Shown one piece after another: positions 10,200 to 29,088 of a stretch of 64,000 nt of DNA. The DNA is taken from the IMG/VR virus record IMGVR_UViG_3300032323_003295, positions 28,490 to 92,489 of that record, one strand, 5' to 3'. Below the pieces are notes generated by a model. The model saw nothing but the letters and a program-made list of their open reading frames with translations, ran no database searches and was not told where the DNA came from. This stretch comes from a virus. Its lineage: Duplodnaviria; Heunggongvirae; Uroviricota; Caudoviricetes. The stretch's first letter is position 1. Each line of letters starts with the position of its first letter. A program made the position numbers and the translations under genes.

Positions 10200-10911
10200 A
10201 AACTATTATGCTTTACTTGGAGTTATAAATACCTCTACTGAAAAAGAGATAAAGAAAGCTTATTATAAACTTTCTTTCATTCACCATCCAGATAAGAATG
10301 GAGATCCAATTGTATTTGGTGATTTAACAGAAGCATATGATATTCTTTGTGGTGAGCAAAGAGAATCATATGATATGAGAAGTAGATTTGGTAATAACTA
10401 CAATGAGTATTATGAGTTATTAGAAACTGATTTTAATTTCAATTTTGATGACACTAAGGATAAATTAGAGAAGTTCAAAAAGAATGATGTATTTAATATT
10501 TACATTAAAGTAGATGATACTTTTGATGGAAAGATTGAATATGAAAGATGGGTAATGTGTAAGACTTGTGATGGTTCTGGAAAAGACTTATCATCTAAAA
10601 TTATTATTAAAGATAATGATGGTAAGGTATTACATATCTTTGATGCAGATGATGGTTGTGATTTCTGTGAGGGTAGTGGTAAAGACTATACTGGTAATAA
10701 ATGTTCATTTTGTCAGGGTCAGGGAAAAGTAGGTTTAACTCCTTGTAAGACTTGTAAAGGAGATAAACGTATTTTGGGTAAACAAAAGTTAAAGAACATT
10801 AAGCTAACTGGTGATGAAACTAAGTTAGAAGCAATGGGTCATTACTCAAAAGATGAAGCTGGTAAAATTGGATATTTGTTACTTTTTAAGGCGTTGGAAC
10901 CCTCTGAATAA
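10186..10911 (+). CDS. J-domain protein with DnaJ-type Cys-rich zinc finger (truncated DnaJ architecture)
   Basis: N-terminal J domain YYALLGVINTSTEKEIKKAYYKLSFIHHPDKN with the HPD motif. Four CxxCxGxG repeats (CKTCDGSG, CDFCEGSG, CSFCQGQG, CKTCKGDK). The DnaJ C-terminal substrate-binding domains are absent. Confidence 0.8.
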   Translation: MNLNKNYYALLGVINTSTEKEIKKAYYKLSFIHHPDKNGDPIVFGDLTEAYDILCGEQRESYDMRSRFGNNYNEYYELLETDFNFNFDDTKDKLEKFKKNDVFNIYIKVDDTFDGKIEYERWVMCKTCDGSGKDLSSKIIIKDNDGKVLHIFDADDGCDFCEGSGKDYTGNKCSFCQGQGKVGLTPCKTCKGDKRILGKQKLKNIKLTGDETKLEAMGHYSKDEAGKIGYLLLFKALEPSE

Positions 10912-11551
10912 AAAGTGTAACTATATAAGGTTGCATATTATTGTGTGCAACTGTTGATCCACCAGTTGTGTTAATAGTTGCTGAAGATCCTGCCCCTCCT
11001 GTTATTTTACTATCTGGATAATTACCAGCAGGCGGACCATTCCAAGTATACCATGGGATTTGAGTAACTCCAGGAGGTGGTGTTCCAATTTTTAAATTAT
11101 AACCTTCTGAAAAGTGTGAGTGTGGAGGCATTTCAGTAACTAATAAAGTATGCTTTTTAGTACCTGGAAATCCAGAACTTAAACCTGGTTGAGTAAGATT
11201 AATAAAGTCTGCATCACTTGGATCATAACCTACAGAAACATTACCTCCTTTATCCACAGTTCCATTTAGACCATTGCATATGGCCCAACCATATCTTTCA
11301 CCTGGTGTACCATCTGGTTTTGTTGCCCTACCAAGACCTGGATTTGGCCCAGTCATATTAAAATTTTCAGTTATATAAGTTTGTGCAACTGCAAGTTCTT
11401 TAATATCACCTATTTGTGCACCATATACTGCATCAACTAATAGCAATTCAATTTCTTTATGCTCTGCTGCAGTAATAGATCCATTAGTTTGTAGATAACT
11501 ATTTATTTTATCTACTATCTGTTGTCTTGGTGGTGATGTGGTTAATGACAT
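10886..11551 (-). CDS. Phage tail collar domain protein (tail fibre component)
   Basis: Collar-domain signature ...GERYGWAICNGLNGT...GGNVSVGYDPSD...LVTEMPPHSHF (the terminal P-H-x-H). Gly-rich C-terminus. It is the last gene of the minus-strand fibre operon. Confidence 0.7.
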   Translation of the reverse strand: MSLTTSPPRQQIVDKINSYLQTNGSITAAEHKEIELLLVDAVYGAQIGDIKELAVAQTYITENFNMTGPNPGLGRATKPDGTPGERYGWAICNGLNGTVDKGGNVSVGYDPSDADFINLTQPGLSSGFPGTKKHTLLVTEMPPHSHFSEGYNLKIGTPPPGVTQIPWYTWNGPPAGNYPDSKITGGAGSSATINTTGGSTVAHNNMQPYIVTLFIQRVPTP

Positions 11552-11583: not shown

Positions 11584-14500
11584 TTATTGTGAATAATCTC
11601 CTGAATAATCTCCTGAATAATCAGGTGGTAATGCAATTGTTGAAAAAGTAAAAAATTGTCCTACTGTTTTTATAACTGGTCCATTAACAATATTACCATT
11701 AACCACTGTAAATGCTTGGGTATCTGCAAATGCCAGAACATAATATGTAGTATTTGGTGTTAATCCTGTTTGATTTGACAACAATACTGGTGGTGTTGTA
11801 GATGATGTAAAAATAGGAGTAATACCTGAGAGATTTGTTAATATATTTGAATCTGAACTCAAATAAAGTCCACTAGAAACATATTGTACATTACCTTGCA
11901 CAGAAACATTACCACTTATAGTTACAGATGATGTTGTTATATTTGTTGGTGGATTAGTTGTTACTACTACTGATGAAGAAGCACTAACTACAACATTAGG
12001 TATACAAATAATAGTATTATCCATTATTGAACTATCAAGACTATCTACACCAATTGTAACATTATCAACAAATATAAAATCAGAGTTTAGATAATCAATA
12101 TTAGGTGCAACACCTTCATAAGGAATTTGTATACCTTTATAAATATTTTCTTCTTCAAAATATTTAAAGAAAGGAATCATATCAGTTTCATATAACTTAA
12201 TATTATCTAATACCAACATAGATTGACTTCCACCCATATTACCATTTCCTTGAATACTCATCATTAAATCAGTCTTATTATAAAAATATTCATATTTCTT
12301 TTTAATAGTATTTGAACCAAATCCAGTATATCTTTCTGCTGATGTTTTTTCAACAGAGTCAAATCTAAATGAATTTTGAACTGATAAGTGATTAATATTT
12401 TGTGTTATTGGTAAATAAGACATTCTTCTATAAACAGGACTAGACTCACCATCTCCAGTAGGTAGTGATCCAATTTCAAAATTAAGATTATTAAAATGTA
12501 AAATTGGTAAGTCAACACTTGGTGTTATTTCAATTCCAACATCTTCTATATATTTCTTATATTTAATAATCAATTCCCATCTATCTAGTATTGGGTAAGT
12601 TGGATTTTCATTTTGAATATAAATAGTCCAATTACCTGATGCATTATTAGTTACTAATTCCTCAATGTTTGTTGAATTAGAAACACCAAATCCTAATGTA
12701 CCTATACCAGTTTGTTTTTCCATAGAGAAAGTTCCAGTATATGGTTGATTACCTGATGAGAGTGGAGTGGTTGATAAAATATCAAATACAGTATTTATTA
12801 ATTGTGTTTCTGTACTTGATAAATTGTCATTTTTCTTTAAACAAATAATTTTATTATCTGGTGATTTCAAATTAATTATAATATTACTTAAATTAGAACC
12901 TTGACAATTTAATGAAATTTTAACAGCAATGCTAATAATGTCTTCTGCTAATAATTCTAGTCCAAAAATACATTCACTTGTTGTTATTGTTTGTGTAACA
13001 ATGTTATTTGGTACTTGTTGATATGATAAGAAGGCTCCACCTACTATTAAATTAGAACCACTTAAAGTCATAGTTCTTACCAAAGAAGTTGATGGGTTAA
13101 GAGTACCATCAGTATAAGTACTTGCTAATGTACCACCATTATTTCTAATTGAAATAACTTTTCCACAAGGGTTATTATTATAACTGGTGAATTCACCACC
13201 TATATATGAGAAACTATAATTAGAACTAAATTCTATATCATATGCAAATGAATTTAGTCCTGTACCAGTATTAAATCCTGTATCAACTGAACCATTAGAA
13301 CTCAACCTTACTATATTTTTACAAGTTCTAAGTGATGAATCTCTATAAGATGTAAAGTTACCAACTACATAAATTCTACTTTGATCATCTACTGCAATTT
13401 TATTAATAAAATTATTTGATGAATTAGGTAGAAATGACTGAAATGTTGGTGTAATAAATCCCTTATTATTAGTTGAAGTAGTATTACTTATAGTAAATGA
13501 AGTATCAACACTAAGTTTATTGGATACTATTTTTAATTTTACTATTCCATTTGTATAATAAATAGCACCACTTGTAATCTTAAATCTGGTTATTTTACCA
13601 CCAACTATAATATTTTCATTATTATCAACTGCTACAGTAGATGGAATATCACTAGTTAACTGAAATGCAAAGTCTGTTGGTGCATCATTATAAATACTTT
13701 TTTCTGAAAAATTACCATTAAAATCAAATAAAATAATTTTGTTTACATATTTTATACCTGTTGTAGAAAAAAACCGAGTAAAATTACCAATTACTACTGA
13801 AAACCACTCTATAGTATTTAAAGTTGATCCAATTTTTCTAAATGCAATATCTGTAATAAATCCATTGAATTGGTATTCTATTGGATCATTATCTGCATCT
13901 TTGTTAAACTTTATTACTCTACCTAATACATTACCTGTACTAGTAGTTACTGGATTAATATAATTTATAATAATAAATATATTATTATCTAATGTAGTAC
14001 CAATGGCAGTTTTTACAACTACTGCTTTGATAAATTCAATATTACTATCAAAAGGTATTGTAGTAGGAAAACCATTATCAAGAGTAAAATTTGTATTTAT
14101 TCTACAAACCATATCTACTGGTAATCCATTATATTCAGTAAAATTACCTGCTACTATAATCTTACCATCTGATTGTCTATCAACAGACCAAACTTCACCA
14201 TTAAATCCATCAAGAAAGTTATTTTCTGGAATCATTGAACTTAGTGAACCAACATCAAATGTAAAGATATTACTTGCAGTAAGTGTACCACTATCAGCTG
14301 AAATATTTGATTGTGTTGCAGGATTTAAAAAAGGACCACTAAGTTCAGTTTCTGAATCATATAACCTTTGATTAGTTTGTGTAAATTTAGAATTGGCAAT
14401 ACTATAAGTAACAACATCAAACTCTACTACACTATATCTTGTTTTTGCTACATTAATTTTATCATTATTTAATATTGCACCTGAGTTGGTTGCAGTTAAA

Positions 14501-16935
14501 TATAATTCATTTCCAGTAACACCTGAATCTATATAATCTTGTATTGTAGTAGAAATAATTGAAGCACTATCTGCTGATATAACTGCCTCAGATCTATTAA
14601 ATGCTAAGTCTGATGACTTTTTAGTTGAAAAAGTCCAACCAGCATTATAAAAATTAGATATATTATCTAGTTTTGGATTAAATGGTTCATTAAAAGCAGA
14701 ACCATCACCAATAAAATCAGTAAATAATTTATATTTAGTTCCTAACTTATATAATCCATAATTTAAGTCAAAAGAATTTCTAAAACGTGATGCACTTGAA
14801 AGTACATCATATGTAGGATAACCATATAAATTATTTCTATTTACAGATTTACCAGTCAGTGGTTCATATGACCTAAAATCTCTACCTAATGTAACTGATC
14901 TTGTAACATCATAATTAGTATCAATCCAAGAATTAAAACTAAATATACTTGATGAAATTGGACTTTCATTAGATTTTAATAATGATCTATTAGTATCATA
15001 AAACTTAAAGTTTTGTATAACACTTGATGCAGCATATCTTGTAACTTTACCAGTTTCTGGAAATAATAATATCTGATTTTGTTTTTTATCAACAACAACA
15101 TTATTTCCATTAACTGCCAAAACTTTTACAATACCATTATATTCTGGATTATATAATATAGGAACTGGTGGTGCTCCATTAATTGACACTGCATTTGTAT
15201 CTTTATCAATTATTATATAATCACCAGGAAGTAAATTGTGTCCAGAAGTTCTTGGTGGTGTTGCAGTACCAAATACTAAAGTAATATTACTAATTTGACA
15301 ATTTTCAGTAGCTTGTATATTAGTAAAATAATAATCAGGATAAGTAGAATTAAAATGTCCTCCATTAAAAAATCCATCAATCCAATGAGTATCAAACATT
15401 TCTGTAATTTTAGGATAACCTTTAAATAAACCATTATTCCAAACTCCTGAGAAATAACCATTAAAGAATGCTCCTGATAACCAAACATTTCTAGTTATCT
15501 TAATTTTGTGATTAGATGAATCTTTTTCAATTCTTCTGTATGGAAATGTAGTATTTAAACTAACTTCAATCCAAGTTTTATTTATGTCTATATCACTTAT
15601 AGTGTAATAATCTCTTAATAATTTTCTATTTTCATTTATATCAATTGCTACAATATTACCAATTGATACTTTATCACCAACCTTGAATAAGCCACAAGAA
15701 TGTGTTGAACCACTAATTTTTATTCTCCAAGATACATCATAAGAATAAAGAACTGCAGAGTAAACATCATCAAAATCTCCTACTACAGTGTCATCTCTCC
15801 AACCATTATTCCAAACTCCATTTTCCCAAATACCTGCTTTAAAATAACCATTTCCTATTTTTGACGCCAAACTAAATGTTACACCATTTGAAACAGATTG
15901 AAAATTATATACAGAATCTAATATATCAACATCAATATTGGTAGGTGTAGAAGATGCAGCAGGTAATACTTGTAGATTGTTTAATGGATTATATCCACCA
16001 ACTAAACTTACAATTGATATACTTGCAACATATGTTGTAGTTCTTGGTAAAGATGACATACTTGGTCTAAAAACCAAATATCTTTTAGTTCCATTAATAT
16101 TTGTAGCTGCCAAATTTATTTGACTAAAAGTAGCAATTGTATTAATTGAACTAGTTAAACCAGATAAACCACTTACTTCAAAATTAATTGGATTACCCCA
16201 AGAGGCTCTACCCAATTTTAAGTCATTTTTATTTACTAAAAATGCTTCAATTATATCATTTGAATTACCACCAGTAAAATTAAAAGTAAAATCTAAATTG
16301 AAATAATCATAATCAATTAAAGTTGCTATATAGTTATTGTTAAGTGAAACTTCTTCTAATCCTGATCCAAAAGTTGAATAAAGTGGACCTATGACACTTG
16401 ATGTTGATGAAAAATACCAGTTATAAGAACCATTGTTAGAAATAGAGTTAACTTCATAACACCATCCATTTGGTTGACTTTCATCATTTACTGGAACATT
16501 TAAGTATCTAAACTCTCTATATCCATTTATTAAAAAGTCTATCTCTCTAATTGATGATGCCTTTATATAACTTGATGTAAATGCATCTAATGCACCATAT
16601 CTAATAATATTAACAGAACTTTCAGATGAAAGTGTATTTGCATAAGTATAAAATTGTACTTCACTATTTTCCAAAATTGATAATACTTTTACAGAACCTG
16701 CATTAAAAGGATTACTTAATTGTATATCTACTATAGATGCTGATCCACCTTTAATAGTAGTTAAAAATTGATAATTCTTCTTTTGATTATATAAACTAGG
16801 ATTTGTAAATTCACTATTTATATAGAATAGAGTATCACCTAGATTAAGTTGTTTTCTAGTTATACCATTATTTAATATATATTCCCAACTTTGTTGTGAG
16901 TTTCTATCATAAAATGTTGATGGTGAGTTTTGCAT
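11584..16935 (-). CDS. Giant multidomain fibre/adhesin protein (1,783 aa): delta-60-type beta-propeller repeats, P-domain-like module, NGxF repeats, C-terminal (SGDY)n
   Basis: Repeats GKIIVAGNFTEYNGLPVDMVCRINTNFTLDNGF, YVVGNFTSY...IVRLSSNGSVDTGF and YIGGEFTSYNNNPCGKVISIRNNGG fit the delta-60 / DUF5122 pattern GxFTxYNG...RLNxDGSxDxxF. LSNIIINLKSPDNKIICL is proprotein-convertase P-domain-like. WENGVWNNGWRDD and FFNGYFSGVWNNGLFKG are paralogous to repeats in 19056..24338. The C-terminus is DYSGDYSGDYSQ, encoded by a 12-nt tandem repeat at 11592-11627. Confidence 0.8.
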   Translation of the reverse strand: MQNSPSTFYDRNSQQSWEYILNNGITRKQLNLGDTLFYINSEFTNPSLYNQKKNYQFLTTIKGGSASIVDIQLSNPFNAGSVKVLSILENSEVQFYTYANTLSSESSVNIIRYGALDAFTSSYIKASSIREIDFLINGYREFRYLNVPVNDESQPNGWCYEVNSISNNGSYNWYFSSTSSVIGPLYSTFGSGLEEVSLNNNYIATLIDYDYFNLDFTFNFTGGNSNDIIEAFLVNKNDLKLGRASWGNPINFEVSGLSGLTSSINTIATFSQINLAATNINGTKRYLVFRPSMSSLPRTTTYVASISIVSLVGGYNPLNNLQVLPAASSTPTNIDVDILDSVYNFQSVSNGVTFSLASKIGNGYFKAGIWENGVWNNGWRDDTVVGDFDDVYSAVLYSYDVSWRIKISGSTHSCGLFKVGDKVSIGNIVAIDINENRKLLRDYYTISDIDINKTWIEVSLNTTFPYRRIEKDSSNHKIKITRNVWLSGAFFNGYFSGVWNNGLFKGYPKITEMFDTHWIDGFFNGGHFNSTYPDYYFTNIQATENCQISNITLVFGTATPPRTSGHNLLPGDYIIIDKDTNAVSINGAPPVPILYNPEYNGIVKVLAVNGNNVVVDKKQNQILLFPETGKVTRYAASSVIQNFKFYDTNRSLLKSNESPISSSIFSFNSWIDTNYDVTRSVTLGRDFRSYEPLTGKSVNRNNLYGYPTYDVLSSASRFRNSFDLNYGLYKLGTKYKLFTDFIGDGSAFNEPFNPKLDNISNFYNAGWTFSTKKSSDLAFNRSEAVISADSASIISTTIQDYIDSGVTGNELYLTATNSGAILNNDKINVAKTRYSVVEFDVVTYSIANSKFTQTNQRLYDSETELSGPFLNPATQSNISADSGTLTASNIFTFDVGSLSSMIPENNFLDGFNGEVWSVDRQSDGKIIVAGNFTEYNGLPVDMVCRINTNFTLDNGFPTTIPFDSNIEFIKAVVVKTAIGTTLDNNIFIIINYINPVTTSTGNVLGRVIKFNKDADNDPIEYQFNGFITDIAFRKIGSTLNTIEWFSVVIGNFTRFFSTTGIKYVNKIILFDFNGNFSEKSIYNDAPTDFAFQLTSDIPSTVAVDNNENIIVGGKITRFKITSGAIYYTNGIVKLKIVSNKLSVDTSFTISNTTSTNNKGFITPTFQSFLPNSSNNFINKIAVDDQSRIYVVGNFTSYRDSSLRTCKNIVRLSSNGSVDTGFNTGTGLNSFAYDIEFSSNYSFSYIGGEFTSYNNNPCGKVISIRNNGGTLASTYTDGTLNPSTSLVRTMTLSGSNLIVGGAFLSYQQVPNNIVTQTITTSECIFGLELLAEDIISIAVKISLNCQGSNLSNIIINLKSPDNKIICLKKNDNLSSTETQLINTVFDILSTTPLSSGNQPYTGTFSMEKQTGIGTLGFGVSNSTNIEELVTNNASGNWTIYIQNENPTYPILDRWELIIKYKKYIEDVGIEITPSVDLPILHFNNLNFEIGSLPTGDGESSPVYRRMSYLPITQNINHLSVQNSFRFDSVEKTSAERYTGFGSNTIKKKYEYFYNKTDLMMSIQGNGNMGGSQSMLVLDNIKLYETDMIPFFKYFEEENIYKGIQIPYEGVAPNIDYLNSDFIFVDNVTIGVDSLDSSIMDNTIICIPNVVVSASSSVVVTTNPPTNITTSSVTISGNVSVQGNVQYVSSGLYLSSDSNILTNLSGITPIFTSSTTPPVLLSNQTGLTPNTTYYVLAFADTQAFTVVNGNIVNGPVIKTVGQFFTFSTIALPPDYSGDYSGDYSQ

Positions 16936-17017: not shown

Positions 17018-18382
17018 TTAGTCTAAAAAACCATCATTCTCATTAATTTCTGCTATACAATAATCTACAGAATATCCATCCTCAGTTTTGTTATGTACTA
17101 AAATATTATTTGCATAGTATGTGTGGTTACCCATTATTCCCAAATTATATGTAATAACTTTTTTGGTTATTAGTTCAGTTATTTTATCAACTATAGCTTC
17201 TTCATTATCTATAGTAAGTAAAACATCACTCTCTTCTATTTTTTCTACATCAAAATTATATAATTTTTTAGTTATTTCAGGATTAAATGATGACCAACCT
17301 TTGTTAACAACCCAATATGGATGACAAGTAGTAGATTTTATTGATATACCACTTGATAATTCATATTCAACAATATCACTTCTCATTGGACTGACAACTT
17401 TAACTACTTCACCAGGTTCTTGTAATTTAGTTTCTTCATTATAAGTTATTATAATATCACCAATTTTAACATCTTCAATATTTTTAGTTGTATAATCAAA
17501 CATTGTTATTTTAGTTCCTTTTACAAAACAACAAGTATCAATATTAATTGGATCATCTAACTGACATACTGCGGTATAATCTTGAATAGATGATACACTA
17601 CCATTATTTTGTATTTGAATAATATAGTAAAAATCATTATCACTAATTAAATAATATCTATTACTACCAATAAATAAATCTGATAAAGTACCATTCTCAT
17701 TTAAAGAAGTGTATATTATAGTACCAATTACTAATTCATTATTAAAATATATTGTATTAAGTAAGTCTGCTACACATATTGGACCATTTGTTATATTTGA
17801 ATCATAACCTTGACTTGATATATTAAATGTTTTAACATTAAAAGAAGAACATTGTACATGTGACTCAATCTTACCAGATGTGTCTATTTTACATCTATAA
17901 CTTATGTTATTCAATAATATTCTCCAAAATCTACCTTGTCCATTGAATGTAGTATTATCAAAATTTTTAACAAAAGTTAAATTATTTATTATTGTAGTAG
18001 TTGCTACACCATTATTATCTTTAAGTAATATAGAATTTATAACAGGAAATCCACATACTAAATCGTCATTAATTTGTGAATCTCTGGTTGAAATTAATAT
18101 AGTTGCAGTATCAACAGATACTGCAATTGTTTTATATGCACTAAATTGACCTACACTATCTATTATTCTTATTCTAAATGTATGATCACGTACCTGAGTT
18201 ATAGTATGACTATAACTACCACCTCCACTTGTTGGTGTATTTCCTGGAGAATTAGGATTATGATTAACTAAAATAGGTTGAGACCAAGGTGATGTAGTAG
18301 ATGTTCTCCATTGGATTTGATAACCTGATATACCAATATCATCAGTTGCTCCATTCCAAGTTAAGTTTATTATATTTGACAT
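17018..18382 (-). CDS. FN3-domain + Hint (intein-like autoprocessing) domain protein
   Basis: N-terminus LTWNGATDDIGISGYQIQWRTSTTSPW is FN3-like. Residues 285-431 run from CFVKGTKIT (Cys1 block A) through TTCHPYW (TxxH block B) to NILVHN (terminal HN). The +1 residue is Lys, so this is a Hint/BIL domain rather than a canonical intein. Confidence 0.7.
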   Translation of the reverse strand: MSNIINLTWNGATDDIGISGYQIQWRTSTTSPWSQPILVNHNPNSPGNTPTSGGGSYSHTITQVRDHTFRIRIIDSVGQFSAYKTIAVSVDTATILISTRDSQINDDLVCGFPVINSILLKDNNGVATTTIINNLTFVKNFDNTTFNGQGRFWRILLNNISYRCKIDTSGKIESHVQCSSFNVKTFNISSQGYDSNITNGPICVADLLNTIYFNNELVIGTIIYTSLNENGTLSDLFIGSNRYYLISDNDFYYIIQIQNNGSVSSIQDYTAVCQLDDPINIDTCCFVKGTKITMFDYTTKNIEDVKIGDIIITYNEETKLQEPGEVVKVVSPMRSDIVEYELSSGISIKSTTCHPYWVVNKGWSSFNPEITKKLYNFDVEKIEESDVLLTIDNEEAIVDKITELITKKVITYNLGIMGNHTYYANNILVHNKTEDGYSVDYCIAEINENDGFLD

Positions 18383-18476: not shown

Positions 18477-19025
18477 TTACACTGGTATAAAACTATATTC
18501 AGCTGTACTCACATCAAGAGTAACTTTATAATTTCCTGCCACTACTGGAATTTGAAGGCTCACATCATCCACTGCAGTTCCTGTTGGAAAAGATGTTTCT
18601 CCATAAATTCCACCATCTACATCAAATTGAGCATTACCATTAACAAAAGCTCCTGTTATTGTATATGTATATAAATCATTTCTTACCATAGTATAACCAC
18701 CTTGAACAGGAATAGCACTTCCAATAATTTTTATATTATAATCAGGATCTGCTACAATAGCATCTCCTGGTTCAGATAGAATATCAATATCAAGAAAATT
18801 GCTACAAGGTGCCAATTCACTAACTCTTATTTTAATTATACCATCAAAGGAAGTAGTAAAGGTAAAACCACTTAATAATTGCCACCTTTCCACACTTGCC
18901 ACTAATGGGGTTTCGTTTTGAGTTCCATCAATACTCATATGAGTTTCACCTTGTAAATACCCAGGCCAAGTTATCTTAAATGGTCCAGAGCCAACAAGAT
19001 TATCTATTTTTACTATTACTTCCAT
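18477..19025 (-). CDS. Hypothetical structural protein
   Basis: 182-aa ORF inside the co-oriented fibre operon. Confidence 0.5.
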   Translation of the reverse strand: MEVIVKIDNLVGSGPFKITWPGYLQGETHMSIDGTQNETPLVASVERWQLLSGFTFTTSFDGIIKIRVSELAPCSNFLDIDILSEPGDAIVADPDYNIKIIGSAIPVQGGYTMVRNDLYTYTITGAFVNGNAQFDVDGGIYGETSFPTGTAVDDVSLQIPVVAGNYKVTLDVSTAEYSFIPV

Positions 19026-19055: not shown

Positions 19056-22000
19056 TTATTGGCGTTCTACTGTTATTACTATTTTATGTGAAGCCGGTAC
19101 ATATCCTAAATTATATTGTTGTTCACCACTACCAGGATTTAAAGAATAAACTTGACTAGAGTAATAATTTGCATCATTAGGATTATACTTAAAACCTATA
19201 CCAAAATTTACTGGTGCTTGACTTACACCTGTAGCGGTTGTATTTTGTATGCTGATAGTTAGGAATCCTCTACCATGAAGACCAGTTCTATTGTCATATA
19301 TGGGTCCGGTTGGAAGTCCTGAAGTTCTAATACCAGATACTCTCACATAAGCAGTGAAATTAGTATTACCAACAGATACAGTATTTATTATTTCAATTAC
19401 ACCTCTTAAATAGTCATAATTACTATAAGCACCATATTCTCCGGAAATAGTGTCAATTATAGATATAAGTCCACAAGTACTTGGTGTAATTGGTGTAATT
19501 GGTGTAATTGGAGTTGTAGGTATTGTACCAACTTCTCCAAATGAACTAGTTGAACCCCAAGCAGGTGGAGTATCATTAGTAGTAGCAAGAAATATAATAC
19601 GTGTTGGATCAGTATTAGATTGTGTATAATCACTTAATGATTCATTATGAAATATATTCCAAACATGTAAAGATGATGTTCCACTAATAGACATACCATT
19701 GTTTAGAACTTGTAATGCATAATTATCAATAACTGAACCATTTTTAGTTAAGTTAAAATATGAACCATTCCAGTTACCATTTCTCCATAAACCATCTTCC
19801 CATAATACATTATATGCATTCATATAATTAACAATACCATTTTTCCAATTCATACCTACTGCAGTTCCTGAAACAAATGTTCCATTTTCCCAAGTAGAAA
19901 TATTAAACTCACCACCATCAAATATACCATTCTTCCAATAACAAGTATCACTAAAATTAAATGTATTAACATTTCTTGTTACATAAGGATTAAATGAACT
20001 TGATAAAAATCTACCACTTTCAAATGTACCATCCAACCAAACTGAGTTAATCATCTCACCACTTGGATGTGAAAATATACCTTTTTCCCAAAGCATATTT
20101 TTTAAGATAGCTTTATTGACAACTTTAGTAGTATCACTTGACCTTTTAATATCAGTATATAATTTTCTATCTGTAATATACTTATCTTTAATATCAGTTA
20201 CATAACCATCTCTCCATAAACCATAATATCTTCTTGTAGTTGAACCAGTTGGTGGAAAATTATATGACTTTACAAATTTATCAGGATTAGATTGTGATAA
20301 TATTGAAGGTGTTCCACCAATTGCAAGATGACCACTTCCTAAAAATTCTCCAAATGAGAATATACCATTATTCCAAACTCTTCCTTTAAACTGACCTCCA
20401 TTAAACTCACCATCAAACCAATTTGAGTTAGTTATAGTGTTTGCATTACCAAACTCACCTCCATTAAATATACCATATTCCCAAGAATAGTCTTCTTTAG
20501 GTTGTAAACTATTGTCAGGTAAATTTGATCCATAGTAAGATAAGAATTTACCACCATTAAATATACCATTTTTCCATTTTGCTTTATTTCTAAACTCACC
20601 ACCATTAAATATACCATAACTCCAAGTAGCAGTATTAAGTACACCTTGTGTATCATTTGTAGCAAAAACACCTGAATTAAATATACCATTGTTCCAAGTA
20701 ATAACAGAATTTGAAATACCATTATACTTCTGAGAAACAATTTTGGAATTTTCCACAACTGCATAATTTATAGTCCCATTATAGAACCAGGTATCATCTA
20801 TAGGAATTGATGTATCACCTATAAGACCATTATTAAATACACCATTATAAAATTTAGAATAGTAAAATTTACCACCATTAAATACTCCATTTTCCCAATC
20901 ACTTTTATAAAACTCACCATTTAAAAATGTACCATTTTGCCATGAAAATCTTGCATTAAATTCAGTACCACTTTTATAATATCTGGTTTTTACATTTTGA
21001 TTATAATCAAAAATAAGACTATTATCAAAGCTTCTGGAGTTATAAAATAGACCATCACTAAATATACCATCTACCCAAATTGATTCTTTTACCAATCCAT
21101 TTTTAAAGTTTCCACCATTCCAAATAGAATCATAAATTATACCATTATCCCATATATCATTACCACCTACAAAAAATGAGTTCATATAAGTTGCCTTTGA
21201 TAAAATATTAGAATTATCTGAAAATATAGTATCTACAAAAATTAAATTTTTTATTTTTTTAATATTATTAAAATCTTTATCACTAACATCAAAAGATTCA
21301 TCTCTCAATAATGAGTTTGTAATATATGCTCTTTTAAATATACCTGTTATAATTCTAGATCTATTAAACTTAGTTCTATGTAAATAACCATATTTATTTT
21401 GTGCTCTCATAGTTAGAAATAATCCATCTTCTAATAAATTAGGAAATGTATCTCCAGGTTTCAAAATTGATTCTAATTTAATAGTTTGATTAGTTCCTGT
21501 AATTGTACGATTTACAATTTTATATGCATCAGGTAATCTTGTTAGTGAACCGGTAACACCTGTTACTCTTATTGTTGCATTAGAGTTACCACTATTTATT
21601 GTAACAATATCATTTATCTGATAACCTAATCCTTGGAATGATTGTGTAGAACTAATTAATACACCACCATTTAATATACTTTTAATTTTTATTTTTTTTA
21701 TATTAGGACCTTCATTATTAGCACCACCAGTAGAAACTAAAGAGATATTTAATTCATCATTTATATTATAACCAAAACCAGGATTTAAAATTGTTGCAGA
21801 TGTTATAAAATAAGGACTAGTATTACTTACTGTTATTTCTACTTCTAATCCTGTTCCAGATCCTCCAGTAGTTTGTCTTGTAGTATAACCACCACCTGCA
21901 CTACTTGCATAATAATAGTTATTATTATTACCATCAGGGATAAGTTCTATCTCAAAAGCTGCTCCAATAGTAGATGCATTAACATTTATTGTTAATCCTG

Positions 22001-24338
22001 TTCCTGAACCTCCACTTGTACTAAATGTACCATTAGTATAACCTGATCCTGGATTATTAATTACAAAACTTGTAACTTTTCCTCTTGTATCATAATCAAC
22101 TGCATTTAAGAATACAACACTACCAGTTCCTAAATAATCATAATCTACTTCACTTGCAATACCTTCACTTGATATTTTATTAGAAAATGAAATACTATTA
22201 GTACCAGTTAAACTATAAAAACCACCACCATTTAATATATCTTTAGTGATATTATTATCATTACTATAATTTATATGATTTCCACTATTCCAATTTGAGT
22301 TCTCAAATATACCACTTTCAAAATCTGAGTTTACAATATAAGCTTCTGAGAAATCTAATATACCAGTTCCTAAAAATGTATTATTAAATACTCCTGAGTT
22401 TGATGTTATATAATCTGTATTAGTTTGGTATGTGTTATCTTCAAATTTTTGTTTTATAAATATATCAACTGAGTAATAATCTTTACCCTTAATATCTTCT
22501 AATTTATTTCCTATATTATCAACTGAATATCTATACTCATTTTCTTTTGGTGTAGAAACAAATGCATTATACTCAACTCCTAATTTTGTAAATCCATAAC
22601 TAACACCTAAGTTATAATCTATATACTCTTTATAAGGACCTATTTTAAATTTAGTATCAAAGAAATTTAATAATTCACCAGAATTATTATTTATTTTAAT
22701 TCCTTTAATATAAAAACTATCTTTTAATTTGAACTTCTCATAACTTCTTTTATTAATATAAAACTTATAAACTTTATGAGTTACATTTGAGTTATTAGTA
22801 ATAGTATATGTAAATTCATCATAATCAAGTACTTTAATTATATTATCACTAATATAGTTTGAATTTAAAAATAATGAAGATTTATAATGTGAGTTTACTG
22901 ATTTAACTTTATTAAACCTTGAGTTTTCAGCCCTTGAGTTTCTAATCTCTGTATTCTCAATATTTGCATTTATAAATTTACAATTATCAAAGAGAGCTTT
23001 ATTTACAGTAAGTCCACTTGTAGTAAAATTTTCAACAATATTACTTCCCTTTAAATATTCCTCAACAATATTATAAGAACTTGCACTTGTACCTAATTTT
23101 GAGTTAGTAACATTACCATTATTTATAACTGCATTTTGAATATCTGAATTAATAACAAAGTTATAACCATAACCATTATTATCTGGGTTATTAACTTTTT
23201 GATAAGGTAAACCATTAGGAGCAGAAGAAGTTGCAAAAGAGTAGTCAAACTCTGCAAAGTAACTACTTTGTTGACTATAGAAAGAATTCATTATACCAGT
23301 CTGCCATATTGTATTTAATAAAGTTCCTGAATTCCAAGTTGCAGTAGGACTATTCCATATTATTCTTTCATCATTAGTTCCATAAAGTCCTCCATTCCAC
23401 TGACCATCAAATTGTCCTCTTCTAAAGTTAGACTTTGTAATTATTGGTGGATTATTATTCTCATGTTTAACATTGACTTGCCAAGATAATAATATAGGAT
23501 CCCAAGTATAAACAGAATCTTCTTTAAATTCAGCAATAATACTATTTGAATATGAATAAGTAAAACTACCATTTAATATAAGTATTTTGTTATTTGAATT
23601 AGTTGCTGCAATAGAATAAGAACCTAACATAAAATTGCTACTAATATTAATCCAATTTGATGAATCATTTTTAATAAAAAATCCTGGTGAACCTGTCAAA
23701 CCTGATGTTTCTCCCCAATCTGTTACAGGTGCAAATCCATCCAATTTATCAGTAAATATAATATTATTTTGATTTTTATTAAATTTGAAATCTAAAATAC
23801 CATCTCTTGTAGTTATCTGTCTATTAACATGAATAAAATCATTTTGATCTTTAATATAATATACCTTAATAAAGTCATCAAAAACTTCTTGATTTTCTGA
23901 TGTTTCATTTGCAGGTAACCAACCAACAAATTCTATATCCAATACAATTCTACATTCATCTACAAAAAGAACTTTATAACCATCTCTACCTTTCTTATAT
24001 TTATCTTGTTGAATTAATAAATTACTATCATAAGCACCATTAATAATAAATACTTTATCATTGACTTTTAATCCTGAATTTACTTCTGTGTAAAATAAAG
24101 TATAGTTAACACCAGCTATTTTATATGGTTCAACCCAATTCAATAATCTTGGACTACTTGGGTTACCATATCTAAAGTTTACAATAGTTTCATCTATTGG
24201 TGTAGGTAATGTTTTTAGAAAGTCATAACCCACTAAATTAATACCTGAACCTATTTCAGCCAATTCTTCTGTTGTTATAAGATAAGGTTTGGTAATTATT
24301 TTTTTTTGTATTATATTTGTTGATGAAAATGTATTCAT
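19056..24338 (-). CDS. Giant fibre/adhesin protein (1,760 aa) with tandem WxNGxFxxGxF decapeptide repeats, beta-helix-like region, (TPI)3 linker and C-terminal globular domain
   Basis: More than 25 copies of a ~10-residue unit (WNGGNFKNGLV, WENGVFNGGKFYYSKFYNGVFNNGL, SYGIFNGGEFRNKAKWKNGIFNGGKF, SWEYGIFNGGEFGN...WFDGEFNGGQFKGRVWNNGIFSFGEF, YWKNGIFDGGEFNISTWENGTFVSG). GGSGTGL repeats. The PITPITPITP linker is encoded by a 9-nt x3 repeat at 19483-19509. Distinct C-terminal domain. Confidence 0.8.
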   Translation of the reverse strand: MNTFSSTNIIQKKIITKPYLITTEELAEIGSGINLVGYDFLKTLPTPIDETIVNFRYGNPSSPRLLNWVEPYKIAGVNYTLFYTEVNSGLKVNDKVFIINGAYDSNLLIQQDKYKKGRDGYKVLFVDECRIVLDIEFVGWLPANETSENQEVFDDFIKVYYIKDQNDFIHVNRQITTRDGILDFKFNKNQNNIIFTDKLDGFAPVTDWGETSGLTGSPGFFIKNDSSNWINISSNFMLGSYSIAATNSNNKILILNGSFTYSYSNSIIAEFKEDSVYTWDPILLSWQVNVKHENNNPPIITKSNFRRGQFDGQWNGGLYGTNDERIIWNSPTATWNSGTLLNTIWQTGIMNSFYSQQSSYFAEFDYSFATSSAPNGLPYQKVNNPDNNGYGYNFVINSDIQNAVINNGNVTNSKLGTSASSYNIVEEYLKGSNIVENFTTSGLTVNKALFDNCKFINANIENTEIRNSRAENSRFNKVKSVNSHYKSSLFLNSNYISDNIIKVLDYDEFTYTITNNSNVTHKVYKFYINKRSYEKFKLKDSFYIKGIKINNNSGELLNFFDTKFKIGPYKEYIDYNLGVSYGFTKLGVEYNAFVSTPKENEYRYSVDNIGNKLEDIKGKDYYSVDIFIKQKFEDNTYQTNTDYITSNSGVFNNTFLGTGILDFSEAYIVNSDFESGIFENSNWNSGNHINYSNDNNITKDILNGGGFYSLTGTNSISFSNKISSEGIASEVDYDYLGTGSVVFLNAVDYDTRGKVTSFVINNPGSGYTNGTFSTSGGSGTGLTINVNASTIGAAFEIELIPDGNNNNYYYASSAGGGYTTRQTTGGSGTGLEVEITVSNTSPYFITSATILNPGFGYNINDELNISLVSTGGANNEGPNIKKIKIKSILNGGVLISSTQSFQGLGYQINDIVTINSGNSNATIRVTGVTGSLTRLPDAYKIVNRTITGTNQTIKLESILKPGDTFPNLLEDGLFLTMRAQNKYGYLHRTKFNRSRIITGIFKRAYITNSLLRDESFDVSDKDFNNIKKIKNLIFVDTIFSDNSNILSKATYMNSFFVGGNDIWDNGIIYDSIWNGGNFKNGLVKESIWVDGIFSDGLFYNSRSFDNSLIFDYNQNVKTRYYKSGTEFNARFSWQNGTFLNGEFYKSDWENGVFNGGKFYYSKFYNGVFNNGLIGDTSIPIDDTWFYNGTINYAVVENSKIVSQKYNGISNSVITWNNGIFNSGVFATNDTQGVLNTATWSYGIFNGGEFRNKAKWKNGIFNGGKFLSYYGSNLPDNSLQPKEDYSWEYGIFNGGEFGNANTITNSNWFDGEFNGGQFKGRVWNNGIFSFGEFLGSGHLAIGGTPSILSQSNPDKFVKSYNFPPTGSTTRRYYGLWRDGYVTDIKDKYITDRKLYTDIKRSSDTTKVVNKAILKNMLWEKGIFSHPSGEMINSVWLDGTFESGRFLSSSFNPYVTRNVNTFNFSDTCYWKNGIFDGGEFNISTWENGTFVSGTAVGMNWKNGIVNYMNAYNVLWEDGLWRNGNWNGSYFNLTKNGSVIDNYALQVLNNGMSISGTSSLHVWNIFHNESLSDYTQSNTDPTRIIFLATTNDTPPAWGSTSSFGEVGTIPTTPITPITPITPSTCGLISIIDTISGEYGAYSNYDYLRGVIEIINTVSVGNTNFTAYVRVSGIRTSGLPTGPIYDNRTGLHGRGFLTISIQNTTATGVSQAPVNFGIGFKYNPNDANYYSSQVYSLNPGSGEQQYNLGYVPASHKIVITVERQ

Positions 24339-24417: not shown

Positions 24418-25131
24418 ATGACAGACAGAAAAAAAATATTAGTATTCTCAGGAGCTGGAGTTTCTAAAGAAAGTGGTGTGGAAACTTTTCGTGATTCAGA
24501 TGGTTTGTGGAACAACTTTAAAATTGAAGATGTTGCTACACCTAATGGATGGAGAAGAGATAAAGAACTTGTATTAAACTTCTATAATGAAAGAAGAAAA
24601 CAACTTAAAACAGTTCAACCAAATAAAGCTCATGAATTACTTGCCAAACTTGAAGATTATTTTGATGTAACCATTGCAACACAAAATGTTGATGATTTAC
24701 ATGAAAGAGCTGGTTCTACAAATGTTATTCACTTACATGGTGAGTTAACAAAAGTTAGATCAACTCTTGATTCTAAATTAGTTTATGATTGGACAGAAGA
24801 TTTAAACCTTGGTGATAAATGTGAAAAAGGTTCTCAAATGAGACCTCACATTATTTGGTTTGGTGAAGGCCTTAATGAAGATAATGTTAATAATGCAGTA
24901 ACTGCTGCAAAAGAATGTGACATTTGTATTGTTATTGGAACTTCTATGCAAGTTTCACCTGCTAATGAAATTCCTTTTCTTACAAAATACAATACTTTAA
25001 TTTACTATGTGGATCCAGGAGACAAAGATTTTTATGTTCCTGAGTTCAGAGAATTAGAATTTAAACATATCCAAGAACCAGCAACAACTGGAATGGAAAA
25101 ATTATACAATGAACTAACTAAACAATTATAA
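24418..25131 (+). CDS. Sir2-family NAD-dependent protein deacylase (sirtuin/CobB-like)
   Basis: Sirtuin motifs GAGVSKESGVETFR, TQNVDDLHERAG, HIIWFGE and IVIGTSMQVSPA. 237 aa. The usual 4-Cys zinc module appears degenerate. Confidence 0.85.
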   Translation: MTDRKKILVFSGAGVSKESGVETFRDSDGLWNNFKIEDVATPNGWRRDKELVLNFYNERRKQLKTVQPNKAHELLAKLEDYFDVTIATQNVDDLHERAGSTNVIHLHGELTKVRSTLDSKLVYDWTEDLNLGDKCEKGSQMRPHIIWFGEGLNEDNVNNAVTAAKECDICIVIGTSMQVSPANEIPFLTKYNTLIYYVDPGDKDFYVPEFRELEFKHIQEPATTGMEKLYNELTKQL

Positions 25132-26963: not shown

Positions 26964-27263
26964 ATGGAACATACTAAATCATCATTTTATTTTACATCTA
27001 AAAATGATAACTGGCAAGTAGATTATACTTACTATACAACAACTCATTATAAAACCACTTTTACACAATTAAAATCAACTGTTTATTTGAATAATGAATT
27101 ATATTGGGATTTTGATGGAATACCAAACACCAGAACAGACAATCCAACTAAAAGTCAAGCTAAAGAAATTATAAGTGCTGCCAGAAAATTATATAAAGAA
27201 AACTATAAATTACGTGATGATAGAGATAAAAAACTTTCTAAGTTAGGTATTAATAATTCATAA
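26964..27263 (+). CDS. Hypothetical protein (ORF 26874..27263 trimmed to internal Met MEHTKSSF)
   Basis: The listed ORF overlaps the 5' end of the minus-strand gene. Trimming to Met31 removes the overlap and leaves a 99-aa protein that fills a 300-nt gap. Confidence 0.4.
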   Translation: MEHTKSSFYFTSKNDNWQVDYTYYTTTHYKTTFTQLKSTVYLNNELYWDFDGIPNTRTDNPTKSQAKEIISAARKLYKENYKLRDDRDKKLSKLGINNS

Positions 27264-27975
27264 TTATCCACTCTGTTCCCATTATAGTCTTTTTAAATTC
27301 AAATCTACAATTAGGATATAATTCTCTCAATCCATCAAAGTCATAATAACTTAGTAAAAACTTACCCTGAATATTATTTAATATTTCTGCCAATTCTAAA
27401 TGTGAATTAGTTCCAAACTCATGATTTATATAATACTTCTCTTTACCTTTATATGGTGGATCAACATAGAAAAAAGTTTCAGAAGAATCATACTTATCAA
27501 TAATATCTTTATAGTCAGTACTATAAATACTTGTAATTCTATCTATCTTTGGTTTATAAGCTCTATATTTCATCTTAAATATTTCAAACTCTTTATCACT
27601 TCTCCAACTATCCTGACCAATTTGATAAGGGTTAGAACAAGTCAAAACTACCAACCATTGTAATGCCAATAAAACATCATCTTTTGTAGTAATAATTCCT
27701 TTCAATGAAAATCTATAAAAGTCTTCATCTACTTTAGTTGACTTAACTAAGTCAATAAAATCTTTATTACTCTGTAATTGAGTGAATAGATTATAGTTTA
27801 GATTATTAATATCATTATAGATAAAGTCAACATGAGCATATTTGTCATAGTCTAAAGAAAAGAAAACACCCATCATGCCACCAAATGGTTCTACATAAGT
27901 AGATATATCTGTTGGTATATTGGGTGTTATAAATTGTGAAAACTTTGTTTTTTCACCAATATATGGAATTAACAT
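27250..27975 (-). CDS. DNA N6-adenine methyltransferase (Dam-like)
   Basis: Motif I VEPFGGMMGV (FxGxG) at the N-terminal side and motif IV FFYVDPPYKGKEKYY (DPPY) at the C-terminal side. Confidence 0.8.
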   Translation of the reverse strand: MLIPYIGEKTKFSQFITPNIPTDISTYVEPFGGMMGVFFSLDYDKYAHVDFIYNDINNLNYNLFTQLQSNKDFIDLVKSTKVDEDFYRFSLKGIITTKDDVLLALQWLVVLTCSNPYQIGQDSWRSDKEFEIFKMKYRAYKPKIDRITSIYSTDYKDIIDKYDSSETFFYVDPPYKGKEKYYINHEFGTNSHLELAEILNNIQGKFLLSYYDFDGLRELYPNCRFEFKKTIMGTEWIIMNY

Positions 27976-27978
27976 ATA

Positions 27979-29088
27979 TTATTTTTTGAATTCTTTTTTG
28001 TCAGATGATATATAAAATTTATCAAAGTCATAATACTTATCATAAACTTCTCTAACTTTTTTAAGTGTTACCTCATCTAAGATGTCATACACAGACCAAC
28101 CTTTTGGATTAATGTATTGATTAACAGAACCATATCTATTAATATCATCTTTTTGTTTTCTAACCATATAGTATTCTTTAACAAGATTAAATCTTTCTTT
28201 AGTTAAATACTTATCAGGATTAGTGATTACTGTCTTAACTGCTTCAACAACTTCATTAAAGTTTTTGTTTGATGTTAATGTTGAGATATTGTTTATACCT
28301 TTATCATTAACTCTTGACTGATAACAATGAACATAATAAACTAATCCTTTTTTCTCTCTAACTTCTTGGTATAAAGGAGATTTTAATCCTAAAGATAACA
28401 TTGCATTAATAAAGTGAACATAAGCAAAGTCTTCTTCAATTACTGGAGATAAAATTGCAATAGATGTTTTGTCTTTAAAGTCATTGTTTAATTCCATTGG
28501 AGTATCATGATTTCCAAAACTAACATCACTTACAATAACTCTTTCTTGAAACTCAATACCTTTATCTTTGAAGTCTTTATGTTTAGAAACATTGATAATT
28601 TTTGTTGGTTTAGCATATTGTAATTCAAAGAAGTTAAGACAATCCATAAATTTAAGTTTCTCTAAATCTTGTCTTGAACCAATTGGTGAATAATCATTAA
28701 ATAATTTTCTTGAAAGGTTTAACATATGAGATTGAGTTTGATCATTAAATGAATCCATATACTCTTCTAATACAATTTTTCTTTCATTCTCAAATTGTTC
28801 TTTAGTAATATTAAAAGTTGTTAATAAATCTACAAATTTTTTTTTCCATTTATTAACTTTTTCATCAAGTCCTGTTAAATAGAAAACAATTTCATTGGAA
28901 GAAGTATAGGCATTCCAATCAATACCATCTTTGTCAAAATCTTCTTGTAAGTGATCAAATGATTTGCATAAAAGGTGTTCCATAAGATGTGAGAGCCCAT
29001 ACCATCCTGGTTTTTCTAAGTTTGTTGAACCCTCATATACTACATAAAATCCACTTAAATCTGTGGGACTTTTTAAATTTATTATCAT
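27979..29088 (-). CDS. M16-family (pitrilysin/insulinase-like) zinc peptidase
   Basis: Inverted zincin motif GLSHLMEHLLCK (HxxEH) near the N-terminus. 369 aa. Confidence 0.7.
   Translation of the reverse strand: MIINLKSPTDLSGFYVVYEGSTNLEKPGWYGLSHLMEHLLCKSFDHLQEDFDKDGIDWNAYTSSNEIVFYLTGLDEKVNKWKKKFVDLLTTFNITKEQFENERKIVLEEYMDSFNDQTQSHMLNLSRKLFNDYSPIGSRQDLEKLKFMDCLNFFELQYAKPTKIINVSKHKDFKDKGIEFQERVIVSDVSFGNHDTPMELNNDFKDKTSIAILSPVIEEDFAYVHFINAMLSLGLKSPLYQEVREKKGLVYYVHCYQSRVNDKGINNISTLTSNKNFNEVVEAVKTVITNPDKYLTKERFNLVKEYYMVRKQKDDINRYGSVNQYINPKGWSVYDILDEVTLKKVREVYDKYYDFDKFYISSDKKEFKK

What the first reader, a model, noticed from the sequence alone, without database searches (positions are those of the whole stretch)
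19838..21338. Novel tandem decapeptide repeat (WxNGxFxxGxF) array in a 1,760-aa fibre protein
More than 25 consecutive repeats of about 10-11 residues with the consensus W-x-N-G-[IVT]-F-x-[GN]-G-x-F fill the central third of the 19056..24338 protein, e.g. SWEYGIFNGGEFGN...WFDGEFNGGQFKGRVWNNGIFSFGEF. I do not recognise this as a named repeat family; it is unlike pentapeptide, YD, MORN or cell-wall-binding repeats. The same repeat type occurs in shorter runs in the neighbouring 1,783-aa protein (WENGVWNNGWRDD, FFNGYFSGVWNNGLFKG). It is probably a beta-solenoid shaft. The N-terminal half additionally has beta-helix-like and GGSGTGL repeats.
Basis: seen in the sequence. Interest (0 to 1): 0.6.

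Follow-up and report, generated by a model that had tools for sequence, protein, structure and literature searches.

The report
Trp/Phe pentad-repeat beta-helix fibre shaft
The repeat is real: about 500 residues of five-residue units, grouped in threes with Trp, Phe and Phe at their centres. They are predicted to coil into a rigid beta-helix shaft in a giant fibre-like protein shared by the largest known phages. It is an unusual variant of the pentapeptide-repeat theme, not a wholly new kind of repeat.

Summary
The ORF is on the minus strand (19056..24338, 1,760 aa). The motif W-x-[ND]-G-x-F-x-G-G-x-F is real. The full 11-mer occurs 15 times (0.05 expected) and there are 38 aromatic pentads in aa 1040-1545. 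The W, G and F columns are invariant in 49 aligned homologues with 49-79% identity to it over this region.

The description needs correcting. The basic period is 5, and the super-period is 15 (W-F-F pentads). Units are separated by loops of variable length and one 82-aa insert. The array covers aa 1063-1530.

Pfam Pentapeptide_4 scores below threshold on this protein. It just passes in distant relatives that have perfect 15-aa tandem repeats.

The family is small: 359 clusters among 1.84 billion representatives. It lies on phage contigs of up to 641 kb, including the 634-735 kb Mahaphage genomes, and always in the same locus.

All homology to this protein stops at about aa 1560-1640. Beyond that point orthologues carry different C-terminal domains (Peptidase_S74, fn3, PKD, Fib_succ_major).

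Best reading: this is the shaft of a modular receptor-binding fibre. It is a new variant of a known kind and of moderate interest.

The parts
19056..24338 (-). ORF A, 1,760 aa: the giant fibre-like protein that holds the repeat
   Evidence: ORF list and translation. More than 443 homologues, mostly 1,500-1,900 aa, on contigs of up to 641 kb.
19749..21152 (-). Main Trp/Phe pentad-repeat array, aa 1063-1530. Units are three pentads, 'WxNGx FxGGx Fxxxx', followed by a variable loop.
   Evidence: Motif counts against shuffles. Layout and spacing. Invariant W/G/F columns.
19659..21263 (-). Predicted single-chain beta-solenoid block, aa 1026-1560 (modelled as aa 1026-1575)
20091..20336 (-). 82-aa insert (aa 1335-1416) that interrupts the array: one helix plus a low-confidence loop
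   Evidence: Layout. DSSP helix at model residues 326-335, and pLDDT below 50 at model residues 366-374.
23298..23432 (-). Short N-terminal run of the same repeat, aa 303-347 (FRRGQFDGQWNGGLYG...WNSGT...WQTGI)
   Evidence: Nearly invariant W, G and F columns here in alignment A3.
22806..23009 (-). Canonical-looking pentapeptide segment, aa 444-511 (ALFDNCKFINANIENTEIRNSRAENSRF...)
22269..22361 (-). Short run of the same repeat, aa 660-690 (DFESGIFENSNWNSGNH)
   Evidence: Conserved columns in A3.
21459..22121 (-). Four repeats of about 45-50 aa carrying GxGY, two of them followed by GGSGTGL (aa 740-960). These are small beta domains inserted between helix segments.
   Evidence: GxGY at aa 764, 815, 854 and 903. 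All-beta, with pLDDT about 85-92 in AF2. No Pfam hit.
19482..19520 (-). PTTPITPITPITP linker (aa 1607-1619) between the shaft and the tip
   Evidence: A 9-nt x 3.9 tandem repeat at 19477-19511.
19059..19472 (-). C-terminal tip domain (aa 1623-1760), nearly unique to this phage
   Evidence: The last 171 aa find only 2 other proteins among 5.8 billion. Homology of all listed relatives ends at aa 1560-1640. Orthologues carry other domains here.
11584..16935 (-). ORF B, 1,783 aa: partner protein, always next to A and fused to A in distant relatives. It has DUF5122/delta-60 propeller repeats and a P-domain.
   Evidence: Fusion architectures. Conserved synteny in more than 20 loci.
15301..15483 (-). 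Run of the same W/F repeat in protein B, aa 485-545 (WLSGAFFNGYFSGVWNNGLFKG...WIDGFFNGGHF)
15772..15840 (-). Second short run in protein B, aa 366-388 (FKAGIWENGVWNNGWRDD)
10886..11551 (-). 221-aa tail-fibre-like protein, last gene of the same-strand cluster
   Evidence: PHROG tail fiber and tail protein families: phrog_8469 at 1.2e-9, phrog_5795 at 3.5e-8, phrog_9116 at 5.1e-8. T4 Gp10_C scores 24.5 bits, below its cut-off of 27.

Best explanation
The region is the distal shaft of a giant modular virion fibre or spike (a receptor-binding protein) of a Mahaphage-clade huge phage that probably infects Bacteroidota.

Shown:
- The sequence is built from pentads G/S - I/T/V - W/F - polar - N/G/D, organised as a 15-residue W-F-F super-repeat.
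- AlphaFold2 folds it with high confidence into a single-chain beta-solenoid.
- In that model each pentad gives one short strand centred on the aromatic residue, and the Gly and Asn-Gly positions lie mostly outside the strands.

Inferred:
- Three pentads make one right-handed, three-sided coil.
- The Trp and the two Phe form three internal aromatic ladders.
- All loops and inserts leave from the same corner, after pentad 3.
- With the shorter helix segments at aa 303-347, 444-511 and 660-690, the repeat forms a long rigid rod interrupted by small inserted domains.
- The rod holds an exchangeable C-terminal tip (here a nearly unique domain of about 140 aa behind a PITPITPITP linker) away from the particle so that it can bind the host surface.
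- Protein B, encoded next to A and fused to A in distant relatives, belongs to the same fibre.
For: Repeat anatomy and conservation.

Fibre role: homology of all relatives stops at aa 1560-1640, and the last 171 aa find only 2 other proteins among 5.8 billion. Orthologues end in Peptidase_S74 (the intramolecular chaperone of phage fibres and spikes), Fib_succ_major, PKD or fn3 domains. The last gene of the cluster matches PHROG tail-fibre and tail families.

Lineage: tblastn finds the module only in the 634, 636, 642 and 735 kb uncultured phage genomes. These are assigned to the Mahaphage clade with predicted Bacteroidetes hosts in PMC7162821. The order SIR2 - A - B - DnaJ - SMC-like is conserved in more than 20 IMG/VR contigs of 45-483 kb. 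A and B are fused in many representatives of 2,000-3,500 aa.
Against: - No virion proteomics or imaging exists for this uncultured lineage.
- The flanking genes (SIR2, DnaJ, SMC-like, methyltransferase) are not structural.
- PHROGs has no family for protein A, and the N-terminal 300 aa matched no known baseplate or anchor domain.
- A four-sided coil with Trp rotating from face to face is not excluded by the sequence alone.
- Foldseek finds no significant solved relative (best E 0.6).
- AF2 modelled a monomer, so the oligomeric state is unknown.
Confidence: 0.6

Rival explanations
1. It is an ordinary pentapeptide-repeat protein domain: a four-sided Rfr-type beta-helix with 20 residues per coil. 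The Trp every third pentad would then spiral around the core. It would be simply a divergent member of Pfam Pentapeptide_4.
For: There is strict five-residue periodicity, with a hydrophobic centre and a small residue at i-2. In all, 17 of 24 orthologous segments hit Pentapeptide_4 weakly, best E 3.5e-4. Distant relatives reach 39.3 and 39.1 bits against a cut-off of 38, and LD_SV2 reaches 40.1 bits against 29. The same protein has a canonical-looking pentapeptide segment at aa 444-511.
Confidence: 0.2
2. The beta-helix is the catalytic body of a tailspike-type depolymerase (polysaccharide lyase or hydrolase), not a passive shaft.
Against: Sequence identity to those enzymes is 5-12%, and the matches reflect only the generic fold. 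Adhesins with no enzymatic activity score higher. There is no Pfam hit to Beta_helix, pectate-lyase, glycoside-hydrolase or lyase families even at E up to 1. Coils of 15 residues are much narrower than the coils of enzymatic tailspikes, which I recall as 22 residues or more (my own knowledge).
Confidence: 0.12
3. The repeat forms an intertwined trimeric triple beta-helix, as in T4 gp5 or gp12, with each chain contributing one face per turn. In that case the monomeric AF2 solenoid is an artefact.
For: Phage fibres and spikes are usually trimers, and three pentads per unit would map neatly onto three faces (my own knowledge). One orthologue carries Peptidase_S74, a domain of trimeric fibres.
Against: The monomer model is confident on its own, with pLDDT above 90 over most repeats and pTM 0.83. 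Loops of 6-38 aa and an 82-aa insert between units are hard to fit into an intertwined helix. The best matches are single-chain helices.
Confidence: 0.08
4. Protein A is not a virion component. It could be a secreted or cell-surface adhesin-like protein, or an intracellular pentapeptide-type DNA mimic, used during infection.
For: The flanking genes are non-structural. The best structural matches include bacterial adhesins. Pentapeptide proteins such as Qnr and MfpA act as DNA mimics (my own knowledge).
Against: The repeat region is charge-neutral, with 45 acidic and 42 basic residues in 506. By my recollection the DNA mimics are acidic. The protein has a conserved body with an exchangeable C-terminal tip, and one orthologue has an S74 chaperone domain. 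A tail-fibre-like gene lies in the same cluster.
Confidence: 0.08

Closest known systems
Pentapeptide repeat proteins (Pfam PF13599 Pentapeptide_4, PF00805; for example MfpA, Qnr, Rfr proteins, SV2 luminal domain)
   Same: Tandem five-residue units with a hydrophobic centre residue pointing inward and a small residue at i-2. One short strand per pentad. Weak hmmscan matches. Distant relatives with perfect repeats pass the Pfam cut-offs.
   Different: The centre is Trp or Phe in a fixed W-F-F order with a 15-residue period. Gly or Ser is at i-2 rather than Ala. Asn/Asp is at i+2 rather than i-1. The window protein scores below threshold. The model resembles three-sided rather than four-sided helices. 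hhalign to the protein's own pentapeptide-like segment gives 5%. The repeat is embedded in a 1,760-aa fibre-like protein and is charge-neutral.
AIDA-type autotransporter passenger beta-helices (TibA 4q1q, Antigen 43 7kob/7koh)
   Different: Identity is 10-12% and there is no Pfam relationship. By my recollection those helices have coils of about 19 residues, against 15 here. They have no aromatic pentad motif. Biologically they are secreted bacterial adhesins, whereas this is a phage protein.
Phage receptor-binding proteins and tailspikes with beta-helix bodies (Andhra gp15 8egr, K64-1 S2-4 9k4a, CBA120 TSPs, HK620, LKA1 gp49)
   Different: The coils here are much narrower and are built from pentads. 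There is no detectable sequence relationship. Enzymatic activity and trimer formation are not shown. PHROGs has no family for this protein.
Short-coil antifreeze beta-helices (spruce budworm CfAFP 1m8n, Marinomonas MpAFP 3p4g)
   Different: CfAFP is left-handed and superposes only at rmsd 10.7 A, and that match was against the N-terminal model. Their cores are stabilised by disulfides or Ca2+ rather than aromatic ladders (my own knowledge). There is no sequence similarity.
Triangular relatives of pentapeptide proteins (Knotted Solenoid fold, PMC13123833)
   Same: They show that solenoids aligning in sequence with pentapeptide proteins can adopt three-sided coils.
   Different: Those are small knotted dimeric bacterial proteins reported in Brevundimonas. 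Nothing here suggests a knot, and no sequence link was tested.

Membership tests
Pentapeptide repeat family (Pfam PF13599/PF00805) | Tandem 5-residue periodicity with a hydrophobic centre residue (i) and a small residue at i-2 | tested here: met
   Aromatic autocorrelation peaks at lags 5 and 10. Over 38 pentads, i is W in 19 and F in 18, and i-2 is G in 16 and S in 8.
Pentapeptide repeat family (Pfam PF13599/PF00805) | Consensus A[D/N][L/F]XX, with Asp or Asn at i-1 | tested here: not met
   Position i-1 is I, T, V or L in 24 of 38 pentads. The Asn/Gly/Asp sits at i+2 in 29 of 38.
Pentapeptide repeat family (Pfam PF13599/PF00805) | Score at or above the Pfam gathering threshold | tested here: not met
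   The repeat region of the window protein scores 12.6 bits, E 0.14. The best score in the whole protein is 24.4 bits at aa 448-494. The cut-off is 38. Distant relatives P0251 and P0256 reach 39.3 and 39.1 bits, and P0241 scores 40.1 on LD_SV2 against a cut-off of 29.
Pentapeptide repeat family (Pfam PF13599/PF00805) | Right-handed quadrilateral (Rfr) beta-helix with four pentads (20 residues) per coil | tested here: inconclusive
Pentapeptide repeat family (Pfam PF13599/PF00805) | Profile-level homology to a recognised pentapeptide segment | tested here: not met
   hhalign of the W-repeat profile (A2) against the protein's own pentapeptide-like segment (A4) gives 5.4% probability. The A2 profile finds no PDB sequence at E up to 10.
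Right-handed parallel beta-helix, autotransporter or pectate-lyase-like | Single-chain right-handed three-sided beta-solenoid | tested here: met
Right-handed parallel beta-helix, autotransporter or pectate-lyase-like | Sequence membership in Pfam Beta_helix, AIDA, Pertactin or pectate lyase families | tested here: not met
   No such family appears at E up to 1 for the whole protein, or at E up to 10 for 24 repeat segments.
Phage tail fibre / tailspike receptor-binding proteins | Conserved proximal body with an exchangeable C-terminal receptor-binding tip | tested here: met
   Homology of the listed relatives ends at aa 1560-1640. The last 171 aa find 2 other proteins among 5.8 billion. Orthologues end in Fib_succ_major, PKD, fn3 or Peptidase_S74.
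Phage tail fibre / tailspike receptor-binding proteins | C-terminal intramolecular chaperone (Peptidase_S74) | tested here: not met
   Absent from the window protein. Present in orthologue P0090 at aa 1624-1674, 25.1 bits against a cut-off of 22.
Phage tail fibre / tailspike receptor-binding proteins | Encoded in or next to tail or baseplate genes | tested here: inconclusive
   The 221-aa last gene of the cluster hits PHROG tail fiber and tail families and T4 Gp10_C below threshold. The conserved flanks are SIR2, DnaJ and an SMC-like protein.
Phage tail fibre / tailspike receptor-binding proteins | Present in the virion, trimeric, and binds the host surface | not testable with these tools
   The lineage is uncultured. 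No proteomics or structure was found in the literature searched.

The most novel reading that the evidence does not exclude
The W-F-F 15-residue repeat may define a beta-solenoid class that has not been described: a right-handed helix in which three pentapeptide-type units, rather than four, make one very tight coil around a core of stacked Trp/Phe ladders. It would have evolved as the rod of the 1,500-3,500-aa fibres of the largest known phages and a few related phages of Bacteroidota.
Probability: 0.4. Interest if true: 0.55.

Novelty: new variant of a known kind. Interest (0 to 1): 0.4.

Why it matters
The protein belongs to a conserved two-gene (sometimes one-gene) locus shared by the largest phage genomes known, and almost nothing is known about how those particles recognise hosts. 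The conserved rod with a swappable tip marks this as a candidate host-range determinant for Mahaphage-clade phages. The conserved rod also offers a sequence marker for the lineage.

For protein structure, a three-pentad coil with aromatic ladders would extend the pentapeptide-repeat theme to a tighter geometry. It could also serve as a compact, regular scaffold for solenoid design. Neither point overturns current understanding, so the interest is moderate.

Tried and rejected
- Translating the plus strand gave only stops. The gene is on the minus strand.
- PHROGs and NCBIfam have no family for protein A.
- PDB sequence searches with the protein and with two profiles gave only weak SV2 pentapeptide hits for aa 415-496, and nothing for the W repeat.
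- Foldseek against the PDB gave no significant match.
- The afdb50 library was unavailable. Cellular look-alikes in the AlphaFold database could therefore not be sought.
- hhalign between the W-repeat profile and the N-terminal pentapeptide-like segment found no relationship.
- The literature searches and term look-ups in four papers found no description of this repeat or protein.
- A DNA-level tandem repeat was sought and not found.
- The idea of a DNA mimic was set aside because the region is charge-neutral and embedded in a fibre-like protein.
- The model coordinates are not exposed to the scripting tool. Residues per turn and handedness could therefore not be measured directly.

Full report
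**Observation**

The window is AT-rich, with 24-32% G+C. The ORF named in the finding exists at 19056..24338 but is read on the minus strand. The finding's coordinates correspond to aa 1001-1500.

The motif is far above chance:
- W-x-[NDY]-G occurs 17 times between aa 1063 and 1518, against 0.75 expected in shuffles.
- The full 11-mer occurs 15 times against 0.05 expected.
- There are 38 [WFY]xxGx pentads in aa 1040-1545.

Laying the sequence out from each Trp shows the real unit: three pentads, 'WxNGx FxGGx Fxxxx', followed by a loop of variable length. Trp autocorrelation peaks only at lag 15, aromatic autocorrelation peaks at lags 5 and 10, and the commonest W-W spacing is 15.

The array runs from aa 1063 to 1530 and is split by an 82-aa insert at aa 1335-1416. 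Shorter runs occur at aa 303-347 and 660-690 of the same protein, and at aa 366-388 and 485-545 of the neighbouring 1,783-aa protein B. There is no DNA-level tandem array, so the repeat is old and is maintained at the protein level.

**Conservation and distribution**

More than 443 homologues exist, most of 1,500-1,900 aa, on contigs of up to 641 kb. All 120 listed homologues keep the motif count, and the W, G and F positions are invariant alignment columns.

A profile of aa 1133-1336 was searched against 1.84 billion cluster representatives. It finds only 359 clusters at E <= 1e-3 and 121 at E <= 1e-30, so the family is small.

In GenBank phages, tblastn finds the module only in the uncultured phage genomes of 634,780, 636,363, 642,428 and 735,411 bp. 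These are the largest genomes reported in PMC7162821, which assigns them to the Mahaphage clade with predicted Bacteroidetes hosts.

IMG/VR holds 23 loci on contigs of 34-483 kb. In more than 20 of them the order is the same: a 189-aa gene, SIR2, A, B, DnaJ, SMC-like.

In many representatives of 2,000-3,500 aa, the A architecture is fused to segments of B. A and B are therefore parts of one functional unit.

Shorter, more distant relatives of 560-870 aa lie on phage-like contigs with gp32, DNA polymerase B, RtcB and Bacteroidota-type Por_Secre_tail and SprB genes.

**Structure**

AlphaFold2 on aa 1026-1575 with a 49-sequence alignment gives pLDDT 85.2 and pTM 0.83. Mapping DSSP onto the 38 pentads gives this pattern:
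- The aromatic centre is in a strand in 37 pentads.
- Position i-1 is in a strand in 34.
- Position i-2 (Gly or Ser) is outside strands in 30.
- Position i+2 (Asn, Gly or Asp) is outside strands in 29.

So there is one short strand per pentad, with the Gly and Asn-Gly positions mostly between strands.

- Many tailspikes.

**Relation to known families**

Pfam gives nothing at threshold for the repeat. The only hit on the protein is Pentapeptide_4 at 24.4 bits (cut-off 38), at aa 448-494.

When the repeat region was scanned in 24 orthologues, 17 gave weak Pentapeptide_4 hits (best E 3.5e-4) and 8 gave LD_SV2 hits. The window's own segment scores 12.6 bits.

Distant relatives with perfect 15-aa tandem repeats, such as 'sWsGG tFNNG tFENS', reach 39.3 and 39.1 bits on Pentapeptide_4 and 40.1 bits on LD_SV2.

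The pentad consensus is G/S - I/T/V - W/F - polar - N/G/D. It shares the hydrophobic centre and the small i-2 residue of A[D/N][L/F]XX, but it places Asn/Asp at i+2.

hhalign between the W-repeat profile and the protein's own pentapeptide-like segment gives only 5% probability. The profile finds no PDB sequence.

My verdict is that the repeat is pentapeptide-like in construction and marginally linked to the family through intermediates. It is not a demonstrable member, and it probably differs in coil geometry. Triangular solenoids that align with pentapeptide proteins have been described (PMC13123833), so the idea has a precedent.

**Function**

Several observations point to a receptor-binding fibre or spike:
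- Homology of every relative, including those 86% identical, ends at aa 1560-1640.
- The last 171 aa find only two other proteins among 5.8 billion.
- Orthologues carry Fib_succ_major, PKD, fn3 or Peptidase_S74 domains at that position.
- A Pro/Thr linker precedes the tip.
- The last gene of the same-strand cluster matches PHROG tail-fibre families and, below threshold, T4 Gp10_C.

The repeat region is charge-neutral, which argues against a Qnr-type DNA mimic.

Against a firm assignment: the conserved flanks are non-structural genes, PHROGs has no family for A, and there are no virion data.

I put the beta-solenoid reading at about 0.85 and the complete fibre-shaft statement at about 0.6.

**Novelty and score**

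No paper found in the searched library describes the repeat or the protein. It is best classed as a new variant of a known kind: pentapeptide-type solenoid repeats in a phage fibre. Interest is moderate at 0.4. It could rise if the three-pentad coil is confirmed experimentally.

Noticed in passing
window 57508-59588 (+): An array of 11 tRNA genes: Lys x2, Trp x2, Phe x2, His, Leu, Arg and Ser x2. The Trp and Phe tRNAs are duplicated in a phage whose giant fibre protein is enriched in Trp (4.2% in the repeat against 1.0% elsewhere). This may be coincidence.
   Followed up: no
window 17018-18382 (-) and 18477-19025 (-): A 454-aa protein with a Hint/AXH-like domain (AXH 51.8 bits; weak Hint, PT-HINT and intein hits) and a 182-aa ORF of unknown function sit between A and B. 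The Hint gene is found only in the closest relatives (L006-L009). Neither gene was found between A and B in the 634-kb genome or in most IMG/VR loci. This suggests a recent insertion into the A-B locus.
   Followed up: partly
window 11584-16935 (-), protein B aa 851-1546: Compared with the 987-aa B homologue of the 634-kb phage, protein B carries an extra block of about 700 aa. The block has DUF5122/delta-60 beta-propeller repeats and a proprotein-convertase P-domain. In many distant relatives, A and parts of B are one polypeptide of 2,000-3,500 aa.
   Followed up: partly
window 21459-22121 (-), protein A aa 740-960: Four repeats of about 45-50 aa carry GxGY, two of them followed by GGSGTGL. 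They are predicted all-beta with pLDDT about 85-92 and have no Pfam match. They look like small domains inserted between helix segments.
   Followed up: partly
window 24418-25131 (+): A SIR2-family protein (154.5 bits) is transcribed divergently from A. It is conserved at this position in most related huge-phage loci.
   Followed up: no
window 568-2385 (+), 61693-63678 (-), 37986-42278 (-), 42285-45485 (-): Other fibre-like or large genes are scattered through the window. They are a collagen-repeat protein with many PHROG tail-fibre hits, a 661-aa protein matching PHROG tail spike (6e-34), a 1,430-aa protein with a CBM_5_12 motif, and a 1,066-aa protein in phrog_29329. None contains the W/F repeat.
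   Followed up: no
window 8039-9736, 10186-10911, 27250-30997, 33323-36857, 45825-47669: Typical huge-phage accessory genes are present: an SMC/SbcC-like ATPase, DnaJ, a Dam-type methyltransferase, an M16 peptidase, a Toprim primase-like protein, an SPFH/Band 7 protein, an S1-domain protein and an NAD-dependent DNA ligase.
   Followed up: no
LR756501.1/LR756503.1 (735 kb), about 617.4-618.4 kb: The 735-kb genome holds four separate places that match the repeat region at about 27% identity. The repeat module may therefore be present in several paralogues there.
   Followed up: no
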